Source of the DNA: Nitrosopumilaceae archaeon
GTDB lineage: Archaea; Thermoproteota; Nitrososphaeria; Nitrososphaerales; Nitrosopumilaceae
Assembly: GCA_965209085.1 (NCBI GenBank)
Contig: OZ242376.1
Span: forward strand, 512,001 to 576,000
Length of the DNA stretch: 64,000 nt
Direction of reading: 5' to 3'
Below, piece by piece: positions 44,771-50,660 of the stretch. Positions within the stretch are counted from its first letter, which is position 1. Each line of letters begins with the position of its first letter. The translations under genes were made by a program, and so were the position numbers. The notes below the pieces were generated by a model. The model searched no databases, was not told the DNA's origin, and saw only the letters and a list, made by a program, of their open reading frames with translations.

Positions 44771-45251
44771 CTGCTGATCTTACCCCATCGGTTCGCAATT
44801 CAGCAGATGTGGTCCATCACGGACATGTAACAAAAAGAGGAAAGCTGAATGATGCGGTGGCCATTGGTGGAATCTGTTACCACCCATGTCCGATTTGCAT
44901 CAGAGAGTAACATTTCTGAATTTTACTGACGTCTTGCAAAAAATAGAGGATCATCCAAGGCCAAAGTTGCAGCAGCCAAGATGCTTGATGTCATATTTTG
45001 TATACTAAAGGATAGGAGTGAATTTGAAATAAATCATAGTTAAAGCAACAAACCGCGGGTTAGATTTTGGGGATGTTACCCCTGCTGCATAATTGCGGTA
45101 AGCTTTAACATGTGGATAAAGATGGTTGTGGGATTAAATCCCGAATGGATAGATGTCTTTTTATTTTTTGACTGGAAACAGACACATAGCGAAAGCCATA
45201 CCGCATGACACAAAAAATCAAGAAACATTTAAAAAGTATTCACACGGATAA
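44771..45251 (+). mobile_element. Truncated IS110-family copy (transposase 3' end, non-coding region and right end)
   Basis: Colinear with 49160-49642; carries a frameshift and a premature TGA. Confidence 0.9.
45038..45170 (+). ncRNA. Predicted bridge RNA, second (variant) copy
   Basis: Same stems and guides as 49431-49560; several substitutions preserve pairing. Confidence 0.6.
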
Positions 45252-45504: not shown

Positions 45505-45725
45505 AAATTCCAATTATGATAATACAATACTTCAATCTAAATTATGTAATATTATAATAGACCTTGTGCATATCAATCACTAAAACATACGATTCCGACT
45601 ATGACGCTGTCATGATCAAAGTACACATGGCCTAAAACCTTCAAGCAGACAACAAAATAAATCAAAATATCATATGCATGACAAAAAAACAGAATATTAT
45701 ACGTGATCGTGTGCACAAAGATGTG

Positions 45726-46877
45726 CTACTTGATTTGAGGGCAGACTTTTTCCAACGGTTCGATATACTTGCGATCCTTTAACATGATGTGCAGGTTGGT
45801 CAGTCCTGTAACCACTTGGATTTCTGTATAAAACGCATCCATTGTGTCATCATATATGGTACTCATTCTACGGAACCATTTGAGCCGGTTTATGGCATGC
45901 TCTACTTTTATGCGCTTACGACTGATTCTCTTGCTGTATTCGCGTTCTGTCTCTGTCAATCCTCTGCCCTTTGGTTTTTTGTACGGTTGCTTTGAGATAA
46001 TTCCAGGATAGTCTTTTTCCACGGACAAGTATCCCTTGTCAGTATATAGCATAATTTGTCGCTCTTTGTTTGTATCCGAATTTTTCATGCCATCGGTCCA
46101 TTTGCCAAAATTTGGCGGATTACGTCGCAGTACCTCCATGTCATGTACTGAACCCTCTTCGGGTCCGCCAATGTCAAGTACCAGCCCGTCTTTGTTTGAG
46201 GTTATCTGTACGTTGTAGACGTGCCTCTTACGCTTTCCAGAGTATACTACCTCTTGGTTCTCCTGCGGTCTTTGAACCTGCACAAATGTGGCATCAAGAT
46301 ACAGCTCGCCACCGCCCCTGCCTGATGCGAATTTTTTAAACGACTCGATGGTACGCTCTTCCCGTATCGCAGCACCAACATTCTTAGCCGTTGGAAGAAT
46401 ATTCATCAACAGCTCATCAGCAAATACCAGATATCTGCTGATGGTACTCTGATCAACGCCTGCAATGGCTGCAAGCATTTCCTGTTTGGGGTTATTGCGC
46501 TTGCGGCATAGTGCGACAAACAAAATTTGTGGTGCAGTAAGAATACAGGTGTTTCCCGGATCGTCGACATATTCTGAAAAGCGAGGGGTTTCTGGCGAGT
46601 CTTCAACGGCATTTATGAACCGTTTCTGAATCCATTCAAATTCTTCACGATCCATTCCAGTCATCCCGTATAGATAATTGTCATCATCAACCATATGGTT
46701 CAAGTATTCATAAGCAGATTGTTTTTCGGTCTTATCCCCATCTATCATTTTTTTGTAGCGTTGGTTTTCTGCTTCAAGTTTGGAGATTCTTTTTTCCAAC
46801 TTGGAGATTATACGTTTGTCTGTAGCACACATGCTGTGTGATTGTAATACTTGATCATAGATCTTTCGATTTGCCAA
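45726..46877 (-). CDS. IS5-family transposase (copy 2)
   Basis: Same DDE motifs as 31753-32907. Confidence 0.92.
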   Translation of the reverse strand: MANRKIYDQVLQSHSMCATDKRIISKLEKRISKLEAENQRYKKMIDGDKTEKQSAYEYLNHMVDDDNYLYGMTGMDREEFEWIQKRFINAVEDSPETPRFSEYVDDPGNTCILTAPQILFVALCRKRNNPKQEMLAAIAGVDQSTISRYLVFADELLMNILPTAKNVGAAIREERTIESFKKFASGRGGGELYLDATFVQVQRPQENQEVVYSGKRKRHVYNVQITSNKDGLVLDIGGPEEGSVHDMEVLRRNPPNFGKWTDGMKNSDTNKERQIMLYTDKGYLSVEKDYPGIISKQPYKKPKGRGLTETEREYSKRISRKRIKVEHAINRLKWFRRMSTIYDDTMDAFYTEIQVVTGLTNLHIMLKDRKYIEPLEKVCPQIK

Positions 46878-47668
46878 AATTGATTTTTTGGTTAATATGC
46901 ATAACCATATGTGAAGGGATCTTCTAAGACCACAGATGGTTGTAAGAATGTCAAACGATCCGTATCACCGAAACGTAAATCATCTAAAAAAGATCCAAAT
47001 GCAAACAAACAGATTACCACATATTCTGGGAAGAATATGTTTGTTGGAATGGACGTTCACAAGAAATTTCTTCAAGTTGCAATGATGGATAAAAAAGCCA
47101 AAGTGATTTTTAATGAGAGGATTGAAAATGAAAACAAGTCCATCAGCCGATTCTTCAGATCAAGTGTACCTGAAAATGCAAAAATCGTAATGGAATCTTC
47201 GTCCGTATGGTACGGATTATATCGATACATGACAGATAAAATGGGTTATGATGTCGTATTGTCAAATCCATGGGCGACAAAAATCATCGCCGCATCCAAG
47301 AAAAAGACCGACAAGAGGGATGCTGTAACACTTGCAGACCTATTACGGTGCGGATACATATCCCTCTGTCATGTCTCAAACAAGGACATAGTGGAACAAC
47401 GGCAACTTGTACGATATCGCGACAGTCTTGTCAAGACAAGAACAACTCTAAAAAACAAAATACATGGAATTTTGTTACAGGGAGGGATAAAGATCTTTGG
47501 AGCAACATTTACGCTTACATACAATAGAAAACTGCGTTCTCTAAAGGATTACCGTATAAACGGATATTTGGATTCTATTGGATTCGTTAATACAAAAATT
47601 GCAGACTCAAACATAAAAGTACACAACGCATCCTGTTCAAACAAGGATGCAATGTTGCTCAAGACAAT

Positions 47669-49068
47669 AGACCTCATGCATAATTAACTAAAAAATCAAT
47701 TTTGGCAAATCGAAAGATCTATGATCTAGTATCATGTGAGCATAGCATGTGCAAATCAGACAAACGCATGATCTCTAAACTGGAAAAGACGATCTTAAAG
47801 ATGGAAAAGACGATCCTAAAGATGGAAAAGAATAGCTCCAGGCAGGAATCAGAAATTCAACACTACAAAAAGATGGCACAGAGTAGCAATGATGACAAAA
47901 GACAACATGTCGATAAATATTTGAACAAGGGAATTGGGAATGATGTTCATCTATATGAAATGACAGGAATGAACCGTGAAGAATTTGAATGGATTCTAGA
48001 ACGGTTCAAAAAAACCGTAGAAAATTCATCAGAGATTCCCCGCTTTTCAGAATATGTGGACGATCCTGGAAACACCTGTATCCTTACCGTAAAGCAAGTT
48101 TTGTTTATCGTATTGTGCCGCAAACGCAATAATCTCAAACAGGGAGCACTTGCGTTCATTGCAGACGTTGATCAGAGCACCATTAGCAGATATCTGACAT
48201 TTTCTGATGAACTATTGATGGATATTCTTCCAACGGCTAAGAATATTGGTGCTGCAATACGGACAATACGTACAAGCGAGTTGTTTAAAAAATTCGTACC
48301 CGGCAGAGGCGGCGGCGAGCTATATCTTGATGCCACGTTTGTACAGGTTCAAAGACCGCAGGAGAATCAAGAAACAGTATACTATTCTGGAAAGCGCAAA
48401 AGGCACGTCTACAGCATACAGATAACCTCCAACAAAGATGGAGTGGTAAATGACATTGGCGGTCCAGAAGAGGGCTCAGTACATGACATGGAGGTACTGC
48501 GGCGTAATCCGCCAAATTTTGGCAAATGGACCGATGGCATGAAAAACTCTGATACAAAAAAAGAGCGCCAAATTACACTCTACACCGACAAGGGATACTT
48601 GTCCGTGGAAAAAGACTATCCTGGAATTATCTCAAAGCAGCCATACAAAAAACCAAAGGGTAGGGGATTGACAGAGACAGAACGCGAATATAGCAAGAGG
48701 ATCAGTCGTAAGCGCATAAAAGTAGAGCATGCCATAAACCGGCTCAAATGGTTTCGCAGAATGAGTGCCGTATATGATGACACAATGGATGCATTTTATA
48801 CAGAAATCCAAGTGGTTACAGGACTGACCAATCTGCACATCATGTTAAAGGATCGCAAGTATATCGAACCGTTGGAAAAAATTTGCCCTCAAATCAAGTA
48901 GCACATCTTTGTGCACACGGTTACGCATAATATTCTGCTTTTTGTCATGCATATGATATTTTGATTTATTTTGTTGTCTGCTTGAAGGTTTTAGGCCATG
49001 TGTACTTTGATCATGACAGTGTCATAGTAGGAACCGTATGTCTTTGCAGTTGATTATGCATGAACTCT
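47669..49068 (+). mobile_element. ISL2-like element, copy 3 (1400 bp, intact)
   Basis: TIRs AGACCTCATGCATAAT / ATTATGCATGAACTCT; 3-bp TSD AAT. Confidence 0.95.
47702..48901 (+). CDS. IS5-family transposase (copy 3)
   Basis: DDE motifs; 21-bp N-terminal tandem duplication (EKTILKM). Confidence 0.93.
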   Translation: MANRKIYDLVSCEHSMCKSDKRMISKLEKTILKMEKTILKMEKNSSRQESEIQHYKKMAQSSNDDKRQHVDKYLNKGIGNDVHLYEMTGMNREEFEWILERFKKTVENSSEIPRFSEYVDDPGNTCILTVKQVLFIVLCRKRNNLKQGALAFIADVDQSTISRYLTFSDELLMDILPTAKNIGAAIRTIRTSELFKKFVPGRGGGELYLDATFVQVQRPQENQETVYYSGKRKRHVYSIQITSNKDGVVNDIGGPEEGSVHDMEVLRRNPPNFGKWTDGMKNSDTKKERQITLYTDKGYLSVEKDYPGIISKQPYKKPKGRGLTETEREYSKRISRKRIKVEHAINRLKWFRRMSAVYDDTMDAFYTEIQVVTGLTNLHIMLKDRKYIEPLEKICPQIK

Positions 49069-49430
49069 AATACCTGGCATAGGTGATTTTATTTCATTGA
49101 TACTGGCAGCAGAGATTGATGGAGTTGAGAGGTTTTCTGAACCAAAACAACTCAAATCATATGCAGGTCTTGCCCCATCGGTTCGCAATTCAGCAGATGT
49201 GGTCCATCACGGACATGTAACAAAAAGAGGAAGCAGGATGATGCGGTGGGCACTGGTGGAAGCTGTTACCACCCATGTCCGATTTGCATCAGAGAGTAAC
49301 ATTTCTGAATTTTACCGGCGTCTTGCAAAAAAGAGAGGATCATCCAAGGCCAAAGTTGCAGCAGCGGCCAAGATGCTTGATATCATATTTCGTATGCTAA
49401 AGGATAGGAGTGAATTTGAAATACATCATA

Positions 49431-49560
49431 GTTAAAGCAACAAACCGCGAGTTAGAGTTTGGGGATGTTACCCCGTTGCATAACTGCGGTAAGCTTTAAC
49501 ATGTGGACGAAGATGGTTGTGGGGTTAAATCCCGAATGGATAGATGTCTTTTTACCTTTT
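49431..49560 (+). ncRNA. Predicted IS110 bridge RNA (target-binding and donor-binding loops)
   Basis: Stems GTTAAAGC/GCTTTAAC, ACCGC/GCGGT, GGGG/CCCC, GGACG/TGTCT, GGG/CCC; loops match the reconstructed target and donor junctions; T-rich run follows. Confidence 0.75.
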
Positions 49561-49650
49561 GACTGGAAACAAACACATAGCGAAAGCCATACCGCATGAC
49601 ACAAAAAAGCAAGAAACCTTTAAAAAGTATTCACATGGATAAACTCTATT

Positions 49651-49853
49651 GAACCGTTGGAAAAAGTCTGCCCTCAAATCAAGTAGCACATCTTTGTGCA
49701 CACGGTCACGCATAATATTCTGCTTTTTGTCATGCATGTGACATTTTGATTTATTTTGTTGTCTGCTTGAAGGTTTTAGGCCATGTGTACTTTGATCATG
49801 ACAGTGTCATAGTAGGAACCGTATGTCTCAGGGATTGATTATGCATGAACTCT
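49651..49853 (+). mobile_element. 3'-end fragment of the ISL2-like element
   Basis: Matches 48866-49068 including the TIR ATTATGCATGAACTCT. Confidence 0.88.
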
Positions 49854-49946
49854 AATATGTTGAACGTTTTCTTCAATTATTGGTCAATAATGGTTGGGGG
49901 AATTAAATTTATAATCACCTTGAATCTTTGTATGTGCAAAGATAAT

Positions 49947-50660
49947 TTAGGACTTTGGATAATAGCGACAATAAAATTTCCACCACAATTTCCAATATTT
50001 AGATCTATTTTCCCAACCTTGTAATATTTGTTCGATATAAATTAAAGCATCATGTTTTGTTTTTTTAATTATATATTTTTGCAATGGATTAAAACGTAGT
50101 TTATTATATTCATTATAAATACCTCTTATCCCTGATCTAAAAATATTCAAATTTGACCAAAAATATTTTGCATCTTTTTTATAATTAATTATTTTAATTT
50201 TTAATGATTTTTTTTCAAAATAATCTACATCTGTAATTAGTAATCCATCATTTAATAAATACGATATGCATTGTTTTAATATTTTATATCTTCTAACTCC
50301 AGTTACATATAGTACTGCTTTACTACATATTACAATATTTGCCTTTGGTCCTTTGTATGATAAGTTAAGAATATCTTCATTTATAAATTCATCACAATTT
50401 TTTTTTGCTTTATTTTTAATATTTTTTTTCTTAGTAACGTCAATGCCTATAATATATGGGTTAATATTCTCCCTTTTTATTCTCTCACGTGAATCATTTA
50501 TTGCTACTCCAGTAGAACAACATGCATCAATAATTACTGGAGATGTTAATTTTTTATCTTTTAAATATTCCATTATTAACTTATCGATTCCAGTGTATTC
50601 ATACCTGTTACTATATGTAGTAGTATTCTTCCAATTTCCATCTGACATAATATGTGACAT
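49947..50660 (-). CDS. Class I SAM-dependent methyltransferase-like protein
   Basis: IIDACCSTG, IIGIDV, NIVICS, L..DGLLI; very AT-rich. Confidence 0.7.
   Translation of the reverse strand: MSHIMSDGNWKNTTTYSNRYEYTGIDKLIMEYLKDKKLTSPVIIDACCSTGVAINDSRERIKRENINPYIIGIDVTKKKNIKNKAKKNCDEFINEDILNLSYKGPKANIVICSKAVLYVTGVRRYKILKQCISYLLNDGLLITDVDYFEKKSLKIKIINYKKDAKYFWSNLNIFRSGIRGIYNEYNKLRFNPLQKYIIKKTKHDALIYIEQILQGWENRSKYWKLWWKFYCRYYPKS

What the first reader, a model, noticed from the sequence alone, without database searches (positions are those of the whole stretch)
46890..49650. Archaeal IS110/IS1111 bridge RNA apparently programmed against the TIR of a co-resident IS5 element
Seen: removing the IS110 gives the target (bottom strand) TAGAGTT-TA-TGCA, which is the ISL2-like TIR; joining its ends gives the donor ATATGGT-TA-TCCAT. 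The 3' non-coding region has two stem/internal-loop units. Loop 1 carries TAGAGTT-TG (49453-49461) and TGCA-TA (49477-49482), matching the target. Loop 2 carries AGATGGT-TG (49511-49519; 6/7 plus core) and ATGGA-TA (49536-49542), matching the donor. The core in both left guides relies on a G-T wobble. The dinucleotides after the right guides (AC, GA) pair better with the post-exchange strand (donor GT, target TT) than with the pre-exchange strand. Established: IS621-type bridge RNAs have this left/right guide layout around a 2-nt core with handshake positions; IS1111-group elements have subterminal IRs and a downstream non-coding region; bacterial IS4321/IS5075 target Tn21 IRs. Inference: an RNA-guided recombinase with a palindromic TA core parasitising another IS in a thaumarchaeon, revivable by deleting 47669-49071. 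Whether this element is already described cannot be checked here.
Basis: partly seen in the sequence, partly recalled or inferred. Interest (0 to 1): 0.95.

Follow-up and report, generated by a model that had tools for sequence, protein, structure and literature searches.

The report
RNA-guided archaeal IS hitting transposon ends
A jumping gene of the IS110/IS1111 kind in an ammonia-oxidising archaeon carries a gene for a small two-loop guide RNA whose loops match the tip of another jumping gene, where nearly all its copies sit; it is a clear archaeal example of a mechanism already known from bacteria.

Summary
Window 46904-49639 is an IS110-family element flanked by TA on both sides and split by an IS5-like insertion (47670-49069). 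The genome holds 20 copies of this RNA. Of 17 readable right junctions, 15 lie in the outer tip of IS5-like inverted repeats or a one-base variant of it. Uninterrupted copies of the same repeat exist. Across the order, the RNA structure is kept by compensatory changes. Both target guides track each element's own flanks (22 element types, then 19 further types; 0 of 20000 shuffles each), and the donor guides track the element's ends. So this is very probably an RNA-guided (bridge/seekRNA) IS1111-type element aimed at another element's terminal repeat, in an AmoA-encoding thaumarchaeon.

Two details are not supported as written. The 'TG' of the left target guide is an invariant hairpin-closing U and G. 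The dinucleotides after the right guides give only a weak handshake-like signal.

No RNA data were available, and the window's copy is broken; two other copies have intact reading frames. This is a new member of a known kind, of moderate interest.

The parts
46890..46901 (.). Left flank: inner part of the terminal inverted repeat of IS5-like copy A (its transposase gene lies on the minus strand, 45726-46877); ends in TGCA
   Evidence: 11 of 12 left junctions of this element family end in ATGCA before the TA
46902..46903 (+). Left TA (junction dinucleotide)
   Evidence: TA at the left junction in 22 of 22 element types
46904..46913 (+). Left end with subterminal repeat (ACCATATGTG)
46934..46943 (+). 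10-nt copy of the 5' donor guide inside the left end; inverted repeat with the left terminus; role unknown
   Evidence: 10 of 10 identical to 49511-49520; found at +28 to +40 in 18 of 22 types
47040..47669 (+). N-terminal part of the recombinase gene (DEDD domain). The open frame runs from GTG 46911; homology starts at the ATG near 47040
   Evidence: PF01548, E 3.3e-28
47670..49069 (+). IS5-like copy B inserted into the recombinase gene, flanked by ATA (47667-47669 and 49070-49072)
   Evidence: PF13359, E 8.4e-20
49073..49435 (+). C-terminal part of the recombinase gene (Transposase_20 domain); the stop codon at 49433-49435 lies inside the RNA's outer stem
   Evidence: PF02371, E 5.6e-20
49431..49553 (+). 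Predicted bridge/seekRNA. Outer stem 49431-49438 with 49493-49500. Target loop 49445-49489. Donor loop 49505-49549. A T5 run at 49549-49553 overlaps the last base of the donor-loop stem
   Evidence: (97.7 bits)
49450..49460 (+). [quoted passage not shown]
49476..49484 (+). [quoted passage not shown]
49510..49519 (+). 5' donor guide (AGATGGT + TG), matching the left end on the bottom strand in 6 of 7 positions
49535..49544 (+). 3' donor guide (ATGGA-TA + GA), matching the right end plus TA
49619..49626 (+). TATA-like box about 20 nt before the right end (inferred outward or junction promoter)
   Evidence: strict pattern at 19-21 nt in 18 of 22 types
49632..49639 (+). Right end with subterminal repeat (CACATGGA)
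49640..49641 (+). Right TA
49642..49650 (.). Right flank: outermost bases of the terminal repeat of IS5-like copy A (AACTCTA)
44772..45251 (+). Second copy of the same element in the window, truncated at its 5' end, with its own RNA (45039-45165)

Best explanation
The feature is an IS1111-type member of the IS110 family in an ammonia-oxidising archaeon.

How it most likely works:
- Its recombinase (DEDD domain plus a C-terminal serine domain) acts with a roughly 120-nt RNA encoded directly behind, and overlapping, the stop codon of its gene.
- The RNA has two internal loops.
[quoted passage not shown] - In the second loop, two guides pair in the same way with the element's own left and right ends, joined in a circle.
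- Recombination at the shared TA puts the element 9 bases inside the IS5-like repeat.

Shown here: the anatomy, the conserved structure, the copy distribution, the empty sites, and the covariation of guides with flanks and ends.

Inferred, by analogy with bacterial IS621 and IS1111-type elements:
- that the RNA is made, probably as the 3' part of the recombinase transcript and ended at the T run;
- that it binds the recombinase;
- that a circle is the donor;
- that the TATA-like box near the right end drives expression across the circle junction.

The window's copy itself cannot make recombinase. Two other copies can, and could act in trans.
For: Protein.
- PF01548 (E 3.3e-28) and PF02371 (E 5.6e-20) on the two halves.
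- An intact copy scores 218.6 bits against NCBIfam NF033542, 'IS110 family RNA-guided transposase' (cut-off 140), over positions 1-342 of 343.
- It gives weak but specific hits to the ISCro4 and IS621 transposase chains, with its serine in ..RNSA.. aligned to the serine of ..YESG...

Copies.
- The genome has 20 hits of the RNA model, all inside copies or fragments of the element.
- The 17 right junctions read as follows: AACTCTA in 7, ACTCTAA in 1, ACCTCTA in 1, xGGTCTA in 6, AGGTCCA in 1, AACTTTA in 1.
- 11 of 12 left junctions end in ATGCA.
- Empty sites exist: TGCATAAACTCTA occurs 6 times and TGCATA[AC]GGTCTA 18 times.
- The 4 copies with guide TTAGAGTT all sit at AACTCTA-type tips. Of the 10 copies with guide TTAGACTT, 6 sit at xGGTC[TC]A tips.

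Structure.
- In 24 homologous RNAs, 94.6% of cells are paired against 81.3% in shuffles (0 of 500 shuffles reach it).
- 15 of 22 pairs show changes on both sides. Slid controls reach at most 48.5% paired.
- The outer stem changes together with the stop codon (GTTAG/CTAAC, GTTAA/TTAAC, GTTGA/TCAAC; by eye).

Guides.
- The 3' target guide matches its own left flank at 4.09 of 6 positions, against 1.53 for other types' flanks. 14 of 22 types match 4 of 4 next to the TA. 0 of 20000 shuffles do as well.
- The 5' target guide's longest exact run against its own right flank is 6.36, against 3.02 for others (0 of 20000 shuffles).
- In 19 further guide types found with the model, the figures are 6.26 against 3.03 (0 of 20000 shuffles).
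- Donor guides follow the ends: GGA, AGA, GGG or AGG on the right, and ACCAT-, ACTAT-, GTCAT- or GTCGT-type starts on the left.
- In a genome of the same genus, guide variants differing by one or two bases sit at repeat tips differing in the same bases.

Guide order. The top-strand-binding guide lies 5' of the bottom-strand-binding guide, as reported for IS1111-type seekRNAs (PMC11187229, section 9).

Host. AmoA is present at E 4.5e-119. The nearest named relatives are Nitrosopumilus and Nitrososphaeraceae records.
Against: - There is no direct evidence that the RNA exists or binds the protein.
- The window's copy is broken by the IS5-like insertion, and 6 of 8 full-length copies examined have stops or frameshifts.
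- In this family the 5' target guide is out of register by 2 nt with the commonest layout in homologues. The flank match runs up to the hairpin's closing U, whereas 10 of 22 types end in [flank][TA] before it. How the TA is read on that strand is open.
- One copy (c682) lies at a site that matches poorly: left flank 2 of 4, right flank AGGTCCA.
- Some homologues match badly: L055 and L047 have a run of 2, and L082 a run of 3. L128, L109, L111 and L114 have runs of 2-3.
- In the second family of this genome (F2), the 3' guide matches the left flank in only 1-3 of 4 positions (by eye).
- The shuffles do not correct for relatedness of the element types.
- No Rfam family matches.
Confidence: 0.85

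Rival explanations
1. The recombinase finds the IS5-like repeat by protein-DNA contacts, or the conserved strings act as DNA sites. On this view the matching strings in the 3' region are not RNA guides.
For: No RNA was observed (one search listed no RNA holder). The register of the 5' target guide is not constant. A copy of the donor guide also lies as DNA inside the left end.
Against: Stems around the strings are kept by compensatory changes, which only a folded single strand needs. The guide strings change with the flanks between close relatives while the protein hardly changes. The protein passes the curated model for RNA-guided IS110 transposases.
Confidence: 0.05
2. The family is a fossil in this genome. 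The guides record past targeting, but no copy moves any longer and the RNA is no longer made.
For: The window copy is split. 6 of 8 full-length copies have stops or frameshifts, and there are many fragments. All F2 copies examined (3 of 4) share one in-frame stop.
Against: Two copies (c156, c694) keep a 375-codon open frame and are 99% identical. Copies are 93-100% identical. IS5-like elements and this element are nested in each other in both orders, which speaks for recent activity of both.
Confidence: 0.2
3. The matches between loops, flanks and ends are chance resemblances in A+T-rich sequence.
For: The single guides are short (4 to 8 bases). The fold of the single sequence is only z = -2.48.
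Against: 0 of 20000 shuffles reach the observed guide/flank agreement in three tests. 15 of 17 right junctions lie in the same kind of repeat tip or a one-base variant.
Confidence: 0.01

Closest known systems
IS1111-type elements with a seekRNA (ISEc11, ISPa11, ISKpn4, ISPst6; Siddiquee et al. 2024, PMC11187229: abstract and sections 6, 9, 13 read)
   Same: DEDD transposase with the PF02371 C-terminal domain. The long non-coding region lies downstream of the gene. The RNA carries a top-strand match 5' of a bottom-strand match, and the matches overlap in the target. The element has subterminal repeats and a fixed target.
   Different: The host is archaeal. The subterminal repeat is short and imperfect. 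The serine motif reads SA rather than SG or TG. A TATA-like box stands where bacterial elements assemble a junction promoter (inference). The target is the tip of an IS5-like repeat. Membership of the IS1111 branch by phylogeny was not tested.
IS4321 / IS5075 (Partridge and Hall 2003; seen only as a reference and in passages of PMC11208160 and PMC11187229)
   Same: IS1111-type elements that insert at one position inside the terminal inverted repeats of other transposons (Tn21 family).
   Different: They are bacterial, and the host element and target sequence differ. Here two guide variants and a sister-genome type cover variants and a second position of the same repeat.
IS621 / ISCro4 bridge recombinase and bridge RNA (Durrant et al. 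2024, PMC11208160: section 12 and passages; PMC13626964: abstract and passages)
   Same: A two-loop RNA in which each loop holds two guides for opposite strands around a 2-nt core. Donor and target are read separately. The proteins are homologous (E 2.1e-8 and 6.8e-6 over the C-terminal domain).
   Different: The RNA lies in the left end in IS621, upstream of the gene, and the guide order is reversed. The IS621 core is CT; here it is TA. IS621 handshake dinucleotides follow the top-strand-binding guide.

Membership tests
IS110 family (DEDD, RNA-guided transposase) | N-terminal DEDD/RuvC-like domain (PF01548) | tested here: met
   E 3.3e-28, profile positions 1-152 of 155
IS110 family (DEDD, RNA-guided transposase) | C-terminal Transposase_20 domain (PF02371) with the conserved serine | tested here: met
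   E 5.6e-20; the serine of ..RNSA.. aligns with the serine of ISCro4 ..YESG... The following residue is A, not G
IS110 family (DEDD, RNA-guided transposase) | Full-length match above the curated cut-off of NCBIfam NF033542 | tested here: met
   218.6 bits against a cut-off of 140, positions 1-342 of 343 (intact copy c156)
IS1111 group | Long non-coding region, holding the RNA, downstream of the transposase gene | tested here: met
   204 nt from the stop codon to the right end. About 136 nt lie before the ATG where homology starts. The RNA is at 49431-49553
IS1111 group | Subterminal inverted repeats of 7-17 bp | tested here: inconclusive
   the left end ACCATATGTG and the reverse complement of the right end share CCAT..GTG with a 2-nt gap; the repeat is short and imperfect
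IS1111 group | Top-strand match 5' of the bottom-strand match in the RNA (reverse of the IS110 type) | tested here: met
   against PMC11187229 section 9
IS1111 group | Transposase branches with IS1111 transposases in a tree | not tested
   No ISfinder reference sequences were at hand. The only solved relatives are of the IS110 group
Bridge RNA / seekRNA | Two internal loops in a conserved fold | tested here: met
Bridge RNA / seekRNA | Target-loop guides complementary to both strands of the target, changing with the target | tested here: met
Bridge RNA / seekRNA | Donor-loop guides complementary to the joined ends | tested here: met
   the right guide follows GGA/AGA/GGG/AGG ends, and the left guide follows ACCAT-, ACTAT-, GTCAT- or GTCGT-type left ends
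Bridge RNA / seekRNA | Both guides of each loop include the core dinucleotide | tested here: inconclusive
   The 3' guides carry the core dinucleotide (TA) in 21 of 22 types for both the target and the donor guide (L083 and L052 differ). The 5' donor guide does not: it reads TG, AC, AG, AT or AA. The 5' target guide carries it in only part of the types
Bridge RNA / seekRNA | The RNA is expressed, binds the recombinase and is needed for transposition | not testable with these tools
   No RNA run was listed
Any Rfam family | Match to a curated covariance model | tested here: not met
   0 matches at E up to 1 in 46700-49900

The most novel reading that the evidence does not exclude
In ammonia-oxidising archaea, a clade of IS1111-type elements lives on other mobile elements, and its guide loops are re-set in nature to follow them.
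- Two guide variants in this genome fit two variants of the IS5-like or MITE repeat tip.
- A type in a genome of the same genus uses a TA six bases further inside the same repeat, with single-base guide variants matching single-base repeat variants.
- A second family (F2) shares the donor loops and ends but aims at the end of a different repeated element. It carries a shared stop codon, as expected for a non-autonomous rider moved in trans.
- Expression would depend on an archaeal TATA box placed about 20 nt from the right end, so that it fires across the circle junction.
Probability: 0.4. Interest if true: 0.55.

Novelty: new member of a known kind. Interest (0 to 1): 0.4.

Why it matters
It extends RNA-guided (bridge/seekRNA) transposition, so far worked out in bacteria, to a well-defined clade in ammonia-oxidising archaea. 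Homologues were found in 70 of 401 sampled genomes of the order, and the RNA in 19 of 151 sampled genomes of the family.

It offers a natural series of re-set guides with their targets, which is useful for learning the pairing rules of IS1111-type RNAs. It also offers compact recombinase and RNA pairs with a palindromic TA core that could be tried as tools.

It shows one mobile element using another's terminal repeat as a landing pad in a small, IS-rich archaeal genome.

It does not change the picture of how such elements work.

Tried and rejected
- Rfam: no family matched 46700-49900 at E up to 1.
- Expression: no RNA holder was listed for 49073-49650.
- Contigs of four runs laid on 46700-49900 were short pieces of repeats. 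Joints skipping 1403 bases (47664/47665 to 49068/49069) are what the uninterrupted genomic copies give. No joint from the right end back to the left end was listed, and contigs cannot show its absence.
- I tried to fix one register for the 5' target guide relative to the inner hairpin and failed. The first core base lies at -2 in 10 types, -1 in 7, 0 in 4 and -3 in 1. Placing the crossover of this family on the AA next to the TA would mend the target loop, but it does not fit the donor loop or the junctions (reasoned).
- The split of guide variants A and B over repeat-tip variants is suggestive only: 4 of 4 against 6 of 10, and two of the B rows share a flank. My hand calculation for a 2x2 table gives about 0.07.
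- I considered that F2 copies ride passively on the neighbouring repeat. The left flanks differ and empty ends of that repeat exist, so this stays open.
- Literature: searches for IS110 with Nitrosopumil*, and for IS110 with Thaumarchaeota and 'insertion sequence', gave 3 papers each. I read only the passages that my search terms returned in two of the five distinct papers, and none of those describes a bridge RNA in these archaea. The search for 'bridge RNA', IS110 and archaea gave 22 papers. I read passages of 10.1101/2024.06.21.599552 (662 archaeal IS110 recombinases, no RNA described for them) and of 10.64898/2026.10.21.760802. Supplementary tables of the large surveys were closed and may list this clade.
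Full report
WHAT IS THERE.

Reading 46500-50100 and the open frames shows a nest of insertion sequences. An IS110-family element runs from 46904 to 49639, with TA on both sides (46902-46903 and 49640-49641). Its recombinase gene is split after ..LKTI by an IS5-like element (47670-49069, flanked by ATA). The two halves carry PF01548 (E 3.3e-28) and PF02371 (E 5.6e-20), and the inserted element carries PF13359.

The IS110 element itself sits inside the terminal repeat of another IS5-like copy. That copy's transposase gene is on the minus strand at 45726-46877. The left flank ends in ..TATGCA and the right flank starts with AACTCTA. Taking the element out with one TA gives TGCATAAACTCTA, which occurs uninterrupted 6 times elsewhere in the genome as the tip of such repeats. 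The variants TGCATGAACTCTA (11), TGCATA[AC]GGTCTA (18) and TGCATGAGGTCTA (13) also occur.

THE GENOME'S OTHER COPIES.

The window is part of a single 1.69-Mb contig. The 3' part of the element has 24 matches and the 5' part 17. Most are 92-100% identical; I call this family F1. Five matches of the 3' part and four of the 5' part (65-76% identical) belong to a second family, F2.

Two F1 copies (c156, c694) keep a 375-codon open frame. Six other full-length copies have stops or frameshifts.

The 17 right junctions read as follows:
- AACTCTA: 7
- ACTCTAA: 1
- ACCTCTA: 1
- xGGTCTA: 6
- AGGTCCA: 1
- AACTTTA: 1

Of 12 left junctions, 11 end in ATGCA before the TA. One copy (c682) is at a poorly matching site.

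The 5' target guide comes in two forms. TTAGAGTT is found in 4 copies, all at AACTCTA-type tips. TTAGACTT is found in 10 copies: 6 at xGGTC[TC]A tips, 3 at AACTCTA (two of them with the same flank) and 1 at ACCTCTA. The second form pairs with the GGTCTA tip through one U.G and with the other tip with one mismatch. This is suggestive, not significant on its own.

THE RNA.

The single sequence folds into an outer stem (49431-38 with 49493-500) enclosing a stem/internal loop/hairpin unit, followed by a second such unit. The energy is -40.1 kcal/mol, z = -2.48, and 4 of 200 shuffles fold as well.

Homologues of the recombinase were found in 70 of 401 sampled genomes of the order. Behind the genes of those down to about 38% identity, the same two-unit region is found.

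An alignment of 24 such regions gives a consensus fold of 22 pairs, of which 15 show changes on both sides. In that alignment 94.6% of 520 cells are paired, against 81.3% in shuffles (0 of 500 reach it) and at most 48.5% when partners are slid. By eye, the outer stem changes together with the stop codon of the gene, so the RNA starts inside the last codons.

A covariance model built from this alignment finds 20 places in the genome, all in F1 or F2 copies, two of them in the window (49431-49556 and 45039-45165). It also finds matches in 19 of 151 sampled genomes of the family. Rfam has no matching family.

DO THE LOOPS READ THE FLANKS?

For 22 element types with both ends found (L051 and L060 were dropped for lack of a left end), I ran two tests.

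First test, the 3' target guide. I compared the six bases before the constant TA-A of this guide with the last six bases of the left flank. The guide matches its own flank at 4.09 of 6 positions, against 1.53 for other types' flanks. In 14 of 22 types it matches 4 of 4 next to the TA. 0 of 20000 shuffles of the pairing do as well.

Second test, the 5' target guide. I took the longest exact run against the bottom strand of the right flank, allowing six offsets. The run is 6.36 against the type's own flank and 3.02 against others (0 of 20000).

Because I had set up this procedure while looking at these data, I repeated it unchanged on matches of the model in further loci. Of 45 rows, 19 distinct guide types with a recognisable right end were kept. 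Dropped were 3 rows that were the same loci as before, rows without a recognisable end, and repeated guides. The result was 6.26 against 3.03, 0 of 20000.

In a genome of the same genus, one type sits six bases further inside the same repeat family. Its guide variants ..TTTATGCA..CGTATGCA and ..CTTATGCA lie next to flanks TGCATAAA, TGCATACG and TGCATAAG.

The donor loop behaves likewise. The 3' donor guide reads ATGGA, ATAGA, ATGGG or ATAGG according to the right end. The 5' donor guide follows the left end, whether it starts ACCAT, ACTAT, GTCAT or GTCGT.

The shuffles ignore relatedness of the types, but the signal is large and is seen between near-identical elements.

(1) The TG of the left guides.
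- The inner hairpins of both loops are closed by a U.G that is present in every homologue. For the target loop this holds in 22 of 22 parsed types, and for the donor loop in 24 of 24.
- In most homologues the 5' target guide ends [flank][TA] just before that U (offset -2 in 10 of 22 types). In F1, L045 and L047 the flank match runs up to the U (offset 0).
- Hence the two TGs are not equivalent, and reading the core by a wobble is possible for F1 but not a rule of the family. I could not find one register that fits both loops and the junctions. This stays unexplained (note).

(2) The handshake.
- In IS621 the handshake dinucleotides pair with top strands and follow the top-strand-binding guide (PMC13626964, passages).
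- In this family that place is the closing U.G, not the bases after the 3' guides.
- The base after TA in the 3' target guide is A in 21 of 22 types. The dinucleotide equals the first two bases of the left end in 13 of 22 types, but in 0 of the 6 types whose left end starts GT.
- The dinucleotide after the 3' donor guide equals the first two bases of the right flank in 6 of 22 types, and 217 of 20000 shuffles do as well. It equals the left end in 1 of 22. This is a hint of a product-favouring pairing; in the window's element it is 1 of 2.

HOST AND KIND.

The genome encodes archaeal AmoA (E 4.5e-119; none of 14 control genomes rings). The nearest named records with a related recombinase are Nitrosopumilus, Nitrososphaeraceae and Nitrosopolaris assemblies.

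The intact protein passes NCBIfam NF033542, 'IS110 family RNA-guided transposase' (218.6 bits, cut-off 140). It aligns weakly with the solved ISCro4 and IS621 transposases over the C-terminal domain, serine on serine.

The downstream position of the RNA and the order of its guides are those reported for IS1111-type elements (PMC11187229, sections 6 and 9; PMC11208160, section 12, which predicts a bridge RNA in 93.0% of catalogued IS1111 elements). The subterminal repeats are short and imperfect, and I made no tree, so I file it as IS1111-type by architecture only.

Targeting of another transposon's terminal repeats is known for IS4321 and IS5075 (cited in both papers; the original was not read).

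MECHANISM.

Shown: anatomy, conserved fold, copy distribution, empty sites, and covariation of all four guides.

Inferred:
- The RNA is made as the tail of the recombinase transcript. It overlaps the stop codon, and a T5 run at 49549-49553 overlaps the last base of the donor-loop stem. That such runs end archaeal transcripts is my own knowledge, not from a call.
- The excised circle is the donor.
- A TATA-like box 19-21 nt before the right end fires across the junction. The strict pattern is there in 18 of 22 types, with A/T-rich variants at the same place in the other 4.

The window's copy cannot make recombinase, but its RNA gene is whole. The intact copies could supply protein in trans.

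NOVELTY.

My searches and the passages I read show that archaeal IS110 recombinases are known (662 in one survey). They also show that large surveys of bridge RNAs included archaeal genomes. I found no description of this clade or of its RNA. Supplementary tables, which were closed, may list it.

I rate it a new member of a known kind, with moderate interest for its natural series of re-set guides and for the archaeal promoter arrangement.

Noticed in passing
window 44772-45251: A second copy of the same IS110-family element, truncated at its 5' end. It has its own RNA (model hit 45039-45165), a degenerate guide (TTAGATTT) and the right junction CACACGGA TA AACTTTA.
   Followed up: partly
window 46934-46943 and 49511-49520: A 10-nt copy of the 5' donor guide lies about 30 nt inside the left end and forms an inverted repeat with the left terminus. 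Homologues have it at +28 to +40 in 18 of 22 types, and it changes with their guide (own 7.3 of 10 against 6.3; 0 of 20000 shuffles). Its role is unknown.
   Followed up: partly
G000:C1 856434-857691, 666618-667873, 1172205-1173366, 730252-732621: A second family (F2, about 70% identical) shares the ends and donor loops of F1. Its 5' target guide matches 9 of 9 bases at the end of another repeated element (TA|TACTGCGG..). The three copies whose frames were read share one in-frame TAA (the fourth, at 730252-732621, was not), and that fourth copy is itself interrupted by a further insertion of about 1.1 kb. It may be moved in trans.
   Followed up: partly
window 49619-49626, and the same place in 21 homologues: A TATA-like box about 20 nt before the right end is conserved in position. 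It may be an archaeal counterpart of the junction promoter of bacterial elements.
   Followed up: partly
L128-L147 (genome G406, same genus): This genome has 22 RNA model hits. One type targets a TA six bases further inside the same repeat family, with guide variants matching repeat variants. Another type targets CATTTAC-type sites, with one copy re-set to TAGTGG.
   Followed up: partly
L044, L050, L052, L074, L077 and several G406 loci: Where the two junction dinucleotides differ, the left one is TA in all 22 types tabulated and the right one is TT or TG. It looks as if the second base travels with the right-hand side.
   Followed up: no
window 45560-45580 and 46890-46903 with 49642-49650: IS5-like copy A has unlike ends: TAGACCTTGTGCATA at one end and TAGAGTTTATGCATA at the other, the latter being split by the IS110 element. 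Window 49651-49857 is a 3' remnant of a further IS5-like copy.
   Followed up: no
G000:C1 near 260071, 694899, 157655: Three F1 copies sit in MITE-like elements about 80 bp long that bear the same terminal repeats as the IS5-like elements.
   Followed up: no
L046 / L108: The element in this genome is flanked on both sides by a direct repeat of about 28 nt.
   Followed up: no
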